Source of the DNA: Escherichia coli
GTDB lineage: Bacteria > Pseudomonadota > Gammaproteobacteria > Enterobacterales > Enterobacteriaceae
Length of the DNA: 64,000 nt
Assembly: GCF_030013205.1 (NCBI RefSeq)
Contig: NZ_CP122648.1
Reading direction: 5' to 3' (one strand)
Positions within the stretch are counted from its first letter, which is position 1. Each line of letters begins with the position of its first letter. Positions 27,001-30,000 of this stretch are shown here, piece after piece. Position numbers: made by a program.

Positions 27001-30000
27001 CCACCAGCCGCGTATGCTGATTTCGCTCCAGCAACTGGCGGATTTCTTCTTCCGGCGCGTTGAGATCGATATGCTCAATATCGTGGCGCGACGTCATAAT
27101 GCTGCTGACGGTACGCTGGTTAAGATTAAGTACCCGCTCAATCATCCGCCGTTCCTGCGGATTAAAGATTTGCTGGTTACCATGATCCACCAGCATGGAC
27201 GCGGTTTCGGCGTCCAGTTCCGCATCTTCTTTTTGCCCGCTAAGCAGGCGCATTACCGCTTCGGTAGTCCGCTGGCGCAGCGTCTGGTTAGCGGAAAGAA
27301 AACGTCGCCGGTTAAAGATAGCCAACTGATTGAGCGCCTCGATCATCACCGAGAAACCAATAGCAGCGTACAGGTAGCCTTTCGGAATGACGAAGCCGAA
27401 ACCTTCTGCCACCAGGCTAAAGCCAATCATCAACAGGAAGCTTAAGCAGAGAATAACGATCGTCGGGTGACTGTTAACAAATTGCGTTAACGGCTTGCTG
27501 GCCATCAACATCAGGCTAATAGCGATAACGACGGCGGCCATCATGACCAGTAAATGGTCGACCATCCCGACGGCGGTAATCACCGAGTCGAGTGAGAAGA
27601 TGGCGTCCAGTACCACAATTTGTGTCACCACCCCCCAGAACTTCGCACCTTTGCGTTGCGTGGGGTTATTGCTGTCTTTCCCTTCCAGCCGTTCGTTCAG
27701 CTCCATCGTGGCTTTGAACAGCAGGAAGAAACCACCAAACAGCATGATTAAGTCGCGGGCGCTAAAGGTAAACGAGCGGAAGCTGAATAGCGGTTGTGTC
27801 AGGGTGACCAGCCAGGAGATTGACGCCAGCAGTAACAGGCGCATTAACATCGCCAGCAGCAGCCCGGTAACCCGTGCGCGGTCGCGCTGCTTCGGCGGTA
27901 GTTTTTCGGCGAGGATGGCAATAAAGACCAGGTTATCAATGCCGAGGACCAGTTCGATCACAATCAGCGTGATTAACCCGGCCCAGATAGACGGATCGGC
28001 AATCCATTCCATAGTAAGTACAAAACCTATTCGTTGTATGACAAATGTCACAATTCGATCATGGATAAATCGGGGCAAAAATGCAATGTTGCAGCACTAT
28101 TTATCTCATATTATTTGAGGTTTATAACCTCACATTATCCCTTAATTAAAAGTGGTAATAATAAAACATTATTTAAGAAATATCGCATGTGGAGACACTA
28201 TATTAAATATTGTCAATCTAAAGAAACTCCTAAAAACCATATTGAATGACACTTAATATAATTCTTAAAAATAGCCAATTGCCGAATTGTTACCTTGCCT
28301 GCTATTCCGTTAGCTGTAACACTTCCTCCTGCATTATTGGAGAGCCAATATTCAATTACCATAATGTCACCTTATATTCGGAAGTTAATTTTCGCAATAA
28401 CCCTTTCTCATCAACGACTGTATGTTGAGAGGGTTTTAAAAATTAAGCTAAATCAGTGTATTGGTAGCTAAAAAGCCAGGGGCGGTAGCGTGTCTGGATG
28501 CCTGAAAGACCAGTCTGAATTATTCTGTCAATAGCCTGCGGATGAAATCAATTTTTTTAGGACTGATGCCAGTTAAATTTTTATTCAATTAACTGCAAGG
28601 TAAATGTGCATGGCGACATTGCTATTAATAGTGCACAGGATAATTACTCTGCCAAAGTGATAAATAAACAATGATGAAATCCAAAATGAAATTGATGCCA
28701 TTATTGGTGTCAGTAACCTTGATAAGCGGTTGCACAGTACTTCCGGGCAGCAATATGTCGACGATGGGCAAAGACGTCATCAAACAGCAGGACGCTGATT
28801 TCGATCTCGACAAAATGGTGAATGTTTATCCGTTGACCCCGCGCCTGATTGACCAATTACGTCCACGACCCAACGTAGCGCGCCCCAATATGACGCTGGA
28901 AAGTGAGATCGCGAATTACCAGTATCGCGTCGGGCCGGGGGACGTTCTTAATGTCACCGTCTGGGATCACCCGGAACTCACCACGCCAGCCGGTCAGTAC
29001 CGTAGCTCCAGCGACACCGGCAACTGGGTACAGCCTGACGGCACCATGTTCTACCCGTATATCGGCAAAGTTCACGTGGTGGGGAAAACGCTCGCTGAAA
29101 TCCGCAGTGATATTACCGGGCGCTTAGCGACGTACATCGCTGACCCGCAGGTGGACGTTAATATCGCCGCCTTCCGCTCGCAAAAAGCGTATATCTCAGG
29201 TCAGGTGAATAAATCCGGTCAACAGGCCATCACCAACGTACCACTGACCATTCTCGATGCCATCAACGCCGCAGGTGGCCTGACCGACACCGCTGACTGG
29301 CGCAACGTGGTGCTAACACACAATGGTCGTGAAGAACGCATTTCTTTGCAGGCGCTGATGCAAAACGGCGACCTCAATCAGAACCGACTGCTTTATCCCG
29401 GCGATATTCTCTACGTGCCGCGTAATGATGATCTGAAAGTATTTGTGATGGGTGAAGTGAAAAAACAGAGCACCCTGAAAATGGACTTTAGCGGCATGAC
29501 CCTGACTGAAGCCCTGGGCAATGCTGAAGGCATCGACATGACCACCTCCAACGCCAGCGGCATCTTTGTCATTCGTCCGCTGAAAGGCGAGGGCGGGCGT
29601 AACGGCAAGATTGCCAATATCTATCAGCTGGATATGTCCGATGCCACGTCGCTGGTGATGGCGACAGAATTCCGCCTGCAACCTTATGACGTGGTGTATG
29701 TCACCACCGCACCGGTTTCCCGCTGGAACCGTCTGATCAATCAGTTGCTGCCAACTATTAGCGGTGTCCGTTACATGACGGATACAGCCAGCGACATTCA
29801 TAACTGGTAATCGTCATGTTTAACAACATCTTAGTTGTCTGCGTCGGCAATATTTGCCGTTCCCCGACGGCGGAACGCTTACTGCAACGTTATCACCCGG
29901 AGCTAAAAGTGGAGTCCGCTGGACTCGGCGCGCTGGTCGGTAAGGGCGCTGACCCTACCGCTATCAGCATCGCCGCAGAACATCAACTGTCTCTGGAAGG

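What the first reader, a model, noticed from the sequence alone, without database searches (positions are those of the whole stretch)
28462..28500. JUMPstart/ops element in the colanic-acid (wza) leader
An exact ops 12-mer (GGCGGTAGCGTG, 28481-28492) with the upstream ggtagc repeat lies about 180 bp upstream of wza on the coding strand. This is the RfaH recruitment signal that allows antitermination through long polysaccharide operons. It shares a 20-nt identical core with the rfb leader copy, so the two adjacent clusters may be co-regulated by the same anti-polarity mechanism.
Basis: partly seen in the sequence, partly recalled or inferred. Interest (0 to 1): 0.3.

Follow-up and report, generated by a model that had tools for sequence, protein, structure and literature searches.

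The report
Known RfaH loading site before wza
This is the well-known JUMPstart/ops signal in the leader of the E. coli colanic-acid capsule operon, where the elongation factor RfaH boards RNA polymerase so that the 22-kb operon is transcribed to its end; it is real but ordinary and already described.

Summary
An exact ops 12-mer (GGCGGTAGCGTG) lies at 28481-28492 on the + strand, inside a full 39-nt JUMPstart element (28454-28492; Rfam RF01707, 57.3 bits against a cut-off of 35). It ends 179 nt before the wza start codon, on the coding strand.

The window is E. coli. The yegH-wza spacer is 98-99% identical to K-12. From 28448 to wza it is identical to strain CFT073, where this same ops site gave an RfaH ChIP signal (Hustmyer 2022).

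The 39-mer is identical in 4140 of 5426 complete E. coli genomes, and rfaH is present in 5425. The same wza-type element sits at the same distance before wza in Citrobacter and Salmonella.

The second copy (52559-52597) precedes rfbB. The shared identical run is 21 nt, not 20. That core is invariant across the whole JUMPstart family, so it is not specific evidence that the two clusters are coupled. They share an elongation factor, but initiation differs: wza was H-NS-silenced in wild-type CFT073 and, per the literature, needs RcsAB, while the O-antigen operon was RfaH-bound in wild type.

Verdict: already known (Hobbs & Reeves 1994; Stout 1996; Hustmyer 2022). Low interest.

The parts
28454..28492 (+). 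JUMPstart element of the wza (colanic acid) leader, 39 nt
   Evidence: Rfam RF01707, 57.3 bits against a gathering score of 35, full-length model match. Identical 39-mer in 4140 of 5426 complete E. coli genomes.
28481..28492 (+). ops 12-mer GGCGGTAGCGTG: RfaH recruitment and pause site, read on the non-template strand
   Evidence: Exact match. The same sequence at the same distance from wza (190 nt from ops start) is listed with RfaH signal 'Y', NT strand 'TRUE' and 'UTR' in CFT073. The CFT073 leader is identical from 28448 onward.
28463..28468 (+). Upstream GGTAGC direct repeat of the JUMPstart
   Evidence: Sequence.
28461..28479 (+). 5-bp stem (UUGGU/GCCAG) with 9-nt loop, as in the Rfam JUMPstart RNA consensus; function unknown
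   Evidence: cmscan alignment with structure line. Two of the five pairs are G-U wobbles in this copy.
28295..28323 (+). Inferred core promoter: -35 TTGCCT (28295-28300), 17-nt spacer, extended -10 TGTAACACT (28315-28323). This implies a start near 28330 and a leader of about 340 nt.
   Evidence: Inference from the cross-genus footprint: block 28283-28322 is 65-70% invariant in 9 sequences from 3 genera, followed by a non-conserved trough. Not mapped here.
28174..28267 (+). Three conserved RcsAB-box-like 14-mers (28174-28187, 28219-28232, 28254-28267) upstream of the inferred promoter
   Evidence: 9-10 of 14 matches to the consensus TaAGaatatTCctA (recalled from Wehland & Bernhard 2000). Conserved blocks, coordinates. 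Identity as RcsAB sites is inferred.
28493..28670 (+). Leader between ops and wza, which RfaH-modified polymerase traverses. No canonical Shine-Dalgarno; the nearest is AAGTGA at 28655-28660, 10 nt before the ATG.
   Evidence: Identical in the window, K-12 and CFT073. Strongly conserved across genera but with no covariation support for an RNA structure.
28671..51233 (+). wza-wzb-wzc-wcaABCDEF-gmd-fcl-gmm-wcaI-cpsB-cpsG-wcaJ-wzxC-wcaK-wcaL-wcaM: 20 co-directional genes, 22.6 kb, the presumed target of antitermination
   Evidence: ORFs. RefSeq annotation of a 99.6%/98.8% identical strain mapped onto the window.
32453..32482 (+). REP-type hairpin in the wzc-wcaA spacer; a candidate internal polarity point
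   Evidence: Folding, z = -2.2. It has no U-tract, so it is not an intrinsic terminator. [quoted passage not shown]
52559..52597 (+). Second JUMPstart/ops copy, in the galF-rfbB spacer, 74 nt before the rfbB GTG at 52672
   Evidence: Rfam 60 bits. Sequence. rfbB ORF at 52672-53757.

Best explanation
The 39-nt JUMPstart at 28454-28492 is the RfaH loading site of the colanic-acid (wza-wcaM) operon. Transcription starts at the RcsAB-dependent promoter about 150 nt upstream; the promoter position is inferred here. When RNA polymerase transcribes the ops 12-mer it pauses at T11: ops has G at -10, T at -1 and G at +1 relative to that pause, which fits the consensus pause. The ops bases are then exposed on the non-template strand of the transcription bubble. 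RfaH recognises that exposed DNA, binds the polymerase, displaces or excludes NusG, and stays bound for the rest of the operon. This reduces pausing and Rho-dependent or H-NS-imposed termination, and couples the polymerase to the ribosome. As a result, distal genes of the 22.6-kb operon are expressed once the Rcs system has switched the promoter on. Shown here: the sequence, strand, position, family membership, conservation, and identity to a site with published RfaH ChIP signal. Taken from the RfaH literature: the pause, recruitment and anti-Rho steps. Inferred: the promoter position and which internal sites RfaH overrides.
For: Exact ops on the wza coding strand. Rfam JUMPstart hit well above the cut-off. 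A long one-direction operon downstream. The 39-mer is identical in 4140 and near-identical in 4579 of 5426 complete E. coli genomes. rfaH is present in 5425 of 5426. The CFT073 sequence is identical from 28448 to wza, and that ops gave RfaH ChIP signal, absent in delta-rfaH, with a sigma70 peak upstream. A wza-type JUMPstart (spacer TAAAA/TAAGA/CAGGA) lies 179-190 nt (one Citrobacter locus about 300 nt) before wza in Citrobacter spp., Salmonella enterica subsp. arizonae and diarizonae and an Escherichia sp.. It is flanked upstream by a non-conserved 100-nt trough, so it stands out as a constrained island. Papers cite this element as the cps JUMPstart and describe colanic acid production as RfaH-regulated.
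Against: The promoter placement rests on conservation and a weak consensus match. The tool's only sigma70-like hit (28338-28365) lies in the non-conserved trough. In wild-type CFT073 in rich medium the operon is silent and carries no RfaH, so the site is conditional. The size of the RfaH effect on colanic acid was not available here: Navasa 2014 is not held and an earlier paper by the same group says only 'presumably cps'. The cross-genus set was selected by the pattern itself, so conservation of positions 28463-28492 within that set is partly circular. No excess of intrinsic terminators was found in the operon, so what RfaH overrides remains inferred (Rho, H-NS).
Confidence: 0.9

Rival explanations
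1. The site is a competent RfaH target but contributes little to colanic-acid output. Expression would be governed almost wholly by RcsAB and H-NS at initiation, and the ops would be a conserved but near-neutral accessory.
For: The operon is silent and RfaH-free in wild-type CFT073. No strong intrinsic terminators are predicted inside it. One group wrote only 'presumably cps' for RfaH dependence.
Against: The 39-mer is identical in 4140 E. coli genomes. The element keeps its place before wza in three genera while the 100 nt upstream of it diverge freely, which argues for selection. Colanic acid is referred to as RfaH-regulated, and RfaH occupies the operon when it is transcribed.
Confidence: 0.07
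2. The conserved element acts mainly as an RNA. The 5' half forms the Rfam 'JUMPstart RNA' hairpin in the transcript and regulates stability or translation independently of RfaH.
For: Rfam models a 5-bp stem. In the wza copy the C-to-U change at the stem base keeps a G-U pair, which is possible in RNA but not in DNA.
Against: The hairpin is short, with two wobble pairs. Neither DNA nor RNA folding of the 39-mer is better than shuffles (in one search the local MFE uses other pairings). The most conserved part is the unpaired ops, whose recognition as non-template DNA is established in the literature. The sequence set here cannot show covariation because the 3' arm was fixed by the search pattern.
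Confidence: 0.03
3. The two JUMPstart copies physically couple the clusters. RfaH-modified polymerase from the wza promoter reads through wcaM and galF into the O-antigen genes, so that cps and rfb form one co-regulated unit.
For: No terminator-like hairpin was found after wcaM (51234-51395) or after galF. All genes point the same way.
Against: The rfb cluster has its own JUMPstart and is RfaH-bound in wild-type CFT073 when wza is silent. A separate promoter in the galF-rfbB spacer is described. The shared 21-nt core is common to the whole family.
Confidence: 0.1
4. The motif is there by chance.
For: None beyond the fact that 12-mers do occur at random.
Against: Expected 0.008 exact matches per window. 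Both matches are on the coding strand in leaders of polysaccharide operons. Rfam E-value is 1.6e-10.
Confidence: 0.001

Closest known systems
JUMPstart element of the E. coli K-12 cps (wza) leader (Hobbs & Reeves 1994; Stout 1996)
   Same: It is the same locus. The yegH-wza spacer is 98-99% identical to MG1655, and the JUMPstart and everything from it to the wza ATG are identical.
   Different: Only 15 substitutions, all upstream of 28448. One turns K-12's GGGTGTG into GGGTTTT after an E. coli-specific leader hairpin.
wza ops site of uropathogenic E. coli CFT073 (Hustmyer et al. 2022, mBio, PMC9765446)
   Same: Identical sequence from 28448 through the wza start. The ops 12-mer, strand and 190-nt distance are the same as in their table, which records RfaH ChIP signal.
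   Different: A different strain background: the window matches swine ETEC / O139-type strains over the wza leader. In CFT073 wza is a frameshifted pseudogene; here it is intact.
rfb (O-antigen) JUMPstart in the galF-rfbB spacer, second copy in this window (52559-52597)
   Same: Same family. 34 of 39 positions are identical, including a 21-nt run covering ops. Same strand relation to its operon.
   Different: It lies 74 nt rather than 179 nt before the first gene. The spacer between the GGTAGC repeats is TGTAA versus TAAAA, and each type is conserved with its own operon across genera, so they are old paralogues rather than a recent duplication. The operon behind it was RfaH-bound in wild-type CFT073 rather than silenced.
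JUMPstart before wzi in group 1 capsule clusters (E. coli K30, Klebsiella cps; Rahn & Whitfield 2003)
   Same: The same arrangement: an ops-bearing leader, then wza-wzb-wzc export genes, then a hairpin, then serotype-specific genes. RfaH is cited as needed for genes downstream of wzc.
   Different: There the element follows galF and precedes wzi, and expression is largely constitutive. Here it follows an RcsAB-type promoter. The post-wzc hairpin is a REP element without a U-tract.

Membership tests
JUMPstart element (Rfam RF01707; Hobbs & Reeves 39-bp element) | Match to the 38/39-nt consensus above the curated score | tested here: met
   57.3 bits against a gathering score of 35, model positions 1-38 of 38.
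JUMPstart element (Rfam RF01707; Hobbs & Reeves 39-bp element) | Two direct GGTAGC repeats, the second inside GGCGGTAGC | tested here: met
   28463-28468 and 28484-28489.
JUMPstart element (Rfam RF01707; Hobbs & Reeves 39-bp element) | Lies just upstream of the first gene of a surface-polysaccharide (or hly/tra) cluster | tested here: met
   179 nt before wza, the first of 20 colanic-acid genes.
ops / RfaH-dependent operon | ops consensus (core GGCGGTAG; 12-mer GGCGGTAGCGTG or RGGCGGTAGYNT) | tested here: met
   Exact 12-mer at 28481-28492.
ops / RfaH-dependent operon | ops reads on the non-template strand of the operon it serves | tested here: met
   Same strand as wza-wcaM.
ops / RfaH-dependent operon | ops is transcribed, that is, downstream of the start site and in the leader | tested here: inconclusive
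   No mapping is possible with these tools and Stout 1996 is not held. Indirect support: the conserved promoter-like block at 28283-28325 lies about 150 nt upstream; the CFT073 table classes the identical site as 'UTR' with RfaH ChIP signal and a sigma70 peak upstream.
ops / RfaH-dependent operon | Pause-promoting context (G at -10, pyrimidine at -1, G at +1 relative to the T11 pause) | tested here: met
   Read from the sequence: G2, T11 and G12 of GGCGGTAGCGTG. The pause rule itself is from the literature.
ops / RfaH-dependent operon | Cognate factor RfaH encoded in the genome | tested here: met
   Not in the window itself, but rfaH is present in 5425 of 5426 complete E. coli genomes and the window is E. 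coli.
ops / RfaH-dependent operon | RfaH physically recruited at the site; distal expression depends on RfaH and ops | not testable with these tools
   Published ChIP at the identical CFT073 sequence. Navasa 2014 on K92 is cited there but not readable here.

The most novel reading that the evidence does not exclude
The 178-nt leader between ops and wza (28493-28670) is invariant in three divergent E. coli strains and largely invariant across Escherichia, Citrobacter and Salmonella. That is far more conserved than the 100 nt upstream of the JUMPstart. It could carry a second, undescribed regulatory element: for example a protein or sRNA target, or a sequence needed for RfaH-assisted ribosome loading on a start codon without a proper Shine-Dalgarno. 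On that reading ops would not be the only functional part of the leader.
Probability: 0.15. Interest if true: 0.35.

Novelty: already known. Interest (0 to 1): 0.08.

Why it matters
It matters little as a discovery. The element, its place in the cps/wza leader and its link to RfaH are in the literature from 1994-1996, and RfaH occupancy at this exact sequence was shown in 2022. It is useful for annotation: it marks the start of the transcribed leader region and flags wza-wcaM as an RfaH-class operon. It is also a reminder that sharing a JUMPstart core does not mean two clusters are expressed together.

Tried and rejected
1. The primary papers could not be retrieved: Stout 1996 (PMC178186) and Navasa 2014 are not held. 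Several citing papers were searched for the mapped start site or the RcsAB box sequence of wza, and none gives coordinates.

2. The consensus promoter scan gave a single sigma70-like hit (TGGAGA-16-CATAAT, 28338-28365). I rejected it as the conserved promoter because it lies in the stretch that is not conserved across genera. It could still be an E. coli-specific start.

3. I looked for intrinsic terminators that RfaH might override. In the operon there are 30 terminator-like hits against 24.6 +/- 4.5 in shuffles, and none after wcaM or galF. This is no signal.

4. I tested the conserved leader after ops for RNA structure. RNAalifold gave a positive (unfavourable) covariation term and 1 compensatory pair out of 33; the one divergent Citrobacter sequence breaks rather than compensates the long-range stem. 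Rejected.

5. Thermodynamic folding of ops or the JUMPstart as single-stranded DNA gave a 12-mer MFE of only -0.9 kcal/mol, and the 39-mers fold no better than shuffles. This is uninformative for a hairpin formed inside a transcription bubble on a protein surface.

6. A weak mir-320 'hit' at 28392-28448 (19.5 bits against 55.5) is spurious. It merely reflects a local hairpin.

7. Covariation in the Rfam stem could not be tested, because the cross-genus loci were selected with the 3' arm fixed by the search pattern.

Full report
**1. The observation**

- The sequence at 28440-28500 reads ...aaatCAGTGTATTGGTAGCTAAAAAGCCAGGGGCGGTAGCGTGtctggatg....
- GGCGGTAGCGTG occurs exactly twice in the 64-kb window, at 28481-28492 and 52586-52597, both on the + strand. 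There are no further hits at one mismatch on either strand.
- Shuffles give a mean of 0.29 hits at up to one mismatch. A uniform model expects 0.008 exact hits.
- Rfam's JUMPstart covariance model (RF01707) independently finds 28454-28492 (57.3 bits) and 52559-52597 (60 bits), against a gathering score of 35.
- The upstream GGTAGC repeat is at 28463-28468.
- wza is the 379-aa ORF at 28671-29810 on the + strand. The ops therefore ends 179 nt before the ATG, on the coding strand.
Two corrections apply: the element starts at 28454, and the identical run shared with the rfb copy is 21 nt (28472-28492), with 34 of 39 positions identical overall.

**2. Where the window comes from and what surrounds the element**

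- The 661-bp yegH-wza spacer is 100% identical to several swine ETEC / O139:H1 E. coli chromosomes. It is found in 4831 of 5426 complete E. coli genomes.
- Against K-12 MG1655 it is 98-99% identical, and everything from the JUMPstart to the wza start is identical.
- Downstream lie 20 co-directional genes, wza through wcaM (28671-51233, 22.6 kb). These are followed by galF, the second JUMPstart and rfbBDAC.
- The spacer is AT-rich: 39.6% GC, against 52-57% in most neighbouring 1-kb windows.

**3. Evidence from elsewhere**

*(a) Within E. coli*
- The 39-mer is identical in 4140 complete genomes and near-identical in 4579.
- The one variant examined differs only 5' of the first GGTAGC.
- rfaH itself is present in 5425 of 5426 genomes.

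*(b) Across genera*
- A scan of one genome per species for GGTAGC-N5-AGCCAGGGGCGGTAGCGTG returned 104 loci, mostly Enterobacterales.
- In 13 of them a Wza orthologue (84-100% identity) starts about 180-190 nt downstream (one Citrobacter locus about 300 nt): E. coli, an Escherichia sp., seven Citrobacter loci, and Salmonella enterica subsp. arizonae and diarizonae.
- Most other loci with an identified downstream gene precede rfbB.
- The wza-linked copies carry the repeat spacer TAAAA, TAAGA or CAGGA and CAGTGYATT on the left. The rfbB-linked copies mostly carry TGTTA, TGTAA or TGTCG. The two copies in the window are therefore old paralogues, each travelling with its own operon.
- This set was chosen by the pattern, so conservation of 28463-28492 inside it is partly circular. 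The position relative to wza and the flanks are not.

*(c) A nine-sequence alignment of the whole spacer*
- Conserved blocks lie at 28163-28325.
- A freely diverging trough follows at 28343-28442.
- Conservation then rises sharply at the JUMPstart and continues through most of the leader to wza.

**4. The promoter question**

The mapping paper (Stout 1996) is not held, and no citing paper I could read gives coordinates.
- From my own recollection, which is not a tool result, that paper places the JUMPstart between the start site and the first gene.
- Papers readable here call it the 'Pcps JUMPstart element'. [quoted passage not shown] Another cites Stout 1996 and Hobbs & Reeves 1994 for a 'JUMPStart-RfaH antitermination mechanism' of the wca operon.
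- My own inference from the footprint:
  - The conserved block TTGTTACCTTGCCTGCTATTCCGTTAGCTGTAACACTTC contains a -35-like TTGCCT (28295-28300), a 17-nt spacer and an extended -10 TGTAACACT (28315-28323; AACAAT in the other genera).
  - This predicts a start near 28330, a leader of about 340 nt, and ops at about +150.
  - Three RcsAB-box-like 14-mers sit upstream (28174-28187, 28219-28232, 28254-28267; 9-10 of 14 matches to the recalled consensus). The middle one is about 105 nt before the inferred start.
- The only sigma70-like site the scan tool reports (28338-28365) lies in the non-conserved trough.
- Either way the candidate starts lie upstream of ops.

**5. Direct experimental support in the literature**

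- Hustmyer et al. 2022 (PMC9765446) catalogued ops sites in CFT073. They found RfaH ChIP signal at eight leader sites, including wza.
- Their table lists GGCGGTAGCGTG at 2424955-2424966, 190 nt from the first gene, non-template strand TRUE, 'UTR', RfaH 'Y'.
- I fetched that region. The ops is at exactly those coordinates, and the CFT073 sequence is identical to the window from 28448 through the wza start. The ChIP result therefore transfers to this sequence.
- Another paper refers to colanic acid production as 'an RfaH-regulated process'.
- Navasa et al. 2013 state that RfaH is required for genes downstream of wzc, citing the K30 work, and 'presumably cps'.

**6. How it most likely works**

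- The Rcs phosphorelay (RcsAB) activates the promoter, which H-NS otherwise silences (from the literature).
- Polymerase transcribing the leader pauses at ops T11. The 12-mer has G2, T11 and G12 at the -10, -1 and +1 positions of the consensus pause.
- RfaH recognises the ops bases exposed on the non-template strand and loads onto the polymerase.
- RfaH then suppresses pausing and Rho- or H-NS-dependent termination across the 22.6-kb operon. It may also help ribosome recruitment.
- Consistent details seen here:
  - wza lacks a canonical Shine-Dalgarno.
  - There is no excess of intrinsic terminators in the operon, so Rho/H-NS polarity is the plausible target.
  - A REP-type hairpin sits between wzc and wcaA (32453-32482). 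This is the position where the related K30 cluster has an attenuator.
- The function of the 5' half of the JUMPstart (Rfam's 5-bp stem) remains unknown. Folding gives no support for it.

**7. The co-regulation suggestion**

- Both clusters are RfaH targets, so they share an elongation mechanism.
- The shared 21-nt core is invariant family-wide and carries no locus-specific information.
- In CFT073 the O-antigen operon is RfaH-bound in wild type while wza-wcaM is silent, so they are not co-expressed.
- I found no terminator-like hairpin after wcaM or galF. Read-through coupling cannot be excluded, but it is not needed.

**8. Verdict**

- The feature is real, correctly read, and already known: Hobbs & Reeves 1994; Stout 1996; Bailey et al. 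1997; Hustmyer et al. 2022.
- Nothing in this strain's copy departs from the described element.
- Interest is low.
- The only loose end worth a note is the strong sequence conservation of the leader between ops and wza, which has no structural support and no explanation here.

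Noticed in passing
window 28493-28670: The leader between ops and wza is identical in the window, K-12 and CFT073, while 24 substitutions lie between 28121 and 28447. It is also highly conserved across Escherichia, Citrobacter and Salmonella. RNAalifold finds no covariation, so the reason for the constraint is unexplained.
   Followed up: partly
window 28401-28437: An E. coli-specific leader hairpin (CCCTTTCTC...GAGAGGG) lies just upstream of the JUMPstart. In this strain it is followed by TTTT; K-12 and CFT073 have TGTG/TTTG there. It is not conserved in Citrobacter or Salmonella. It could act as a weak terminator upstream of the RfaH loading point.
   Followed up: partly
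window 28037-28068: A strongly conserved block, TATGACAAATGTCACAATTCGATCATGGATAA, lies 25-55 nt upstream of the divergent yegH start. The other genera have the perfect palindrome TGACAATTGTCA. It looks like an operator or 5'-UTR element for yegH; its function was not examined.
   Followed up: no
window 32453-32482: A REP-type palindrome (GCCGGATAAGGCGTTCACGCCGCATCCGGC) lies in the 92-nt wzc-wcaA spacer, inside the operon.
   Followed up: partly
window 42881-42955: The cpsB-cpsG spacer carries an Rfam algC RNA motif hit (42906-42955, 78 bits). It also differs by a 64-bp indel from strain CFSAN018748, which is otherwise about 99% identical over the colanic-acid cluster.
   Followed up: no
window 12612-13417 (- strand): Three tandem Sib antitoxin RNA genes (Rfam RF00113, 140-150 bits each), presumably an ibs/sib type I toxin-antitoxin array.
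   Followed up: no
window about 28213-28362 (- strand): RefSeq annotates a 49-aa 'hypothetical protein' here in several E. coli genomes. It overlaps the conserved RcsAB-box/promoter region and is probably a spurious call.
   Followed up: no
window 56070-62825: The O-antigen genes after rfbBDAC do not align to strain CFSAN018748, although the wza leader is 100% identical to it. The window's strain therefore carries a different O-unit gene set.
   Followed up: no
loci L014, L017, L058, L059, L063, L070: Exact JUMPstart matches occur on contigs labelled Arthrobacter, Erysipelotrichia MAG, Peptococcaceae MAG, Bacillus, Chryseobacterium and Lachnospiraceae MAG. L058 carries an rfbB 97% identical to E. 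coli. These look like enterobacterial contamination or mis-binning in public assemblies.
   Followed up: partly
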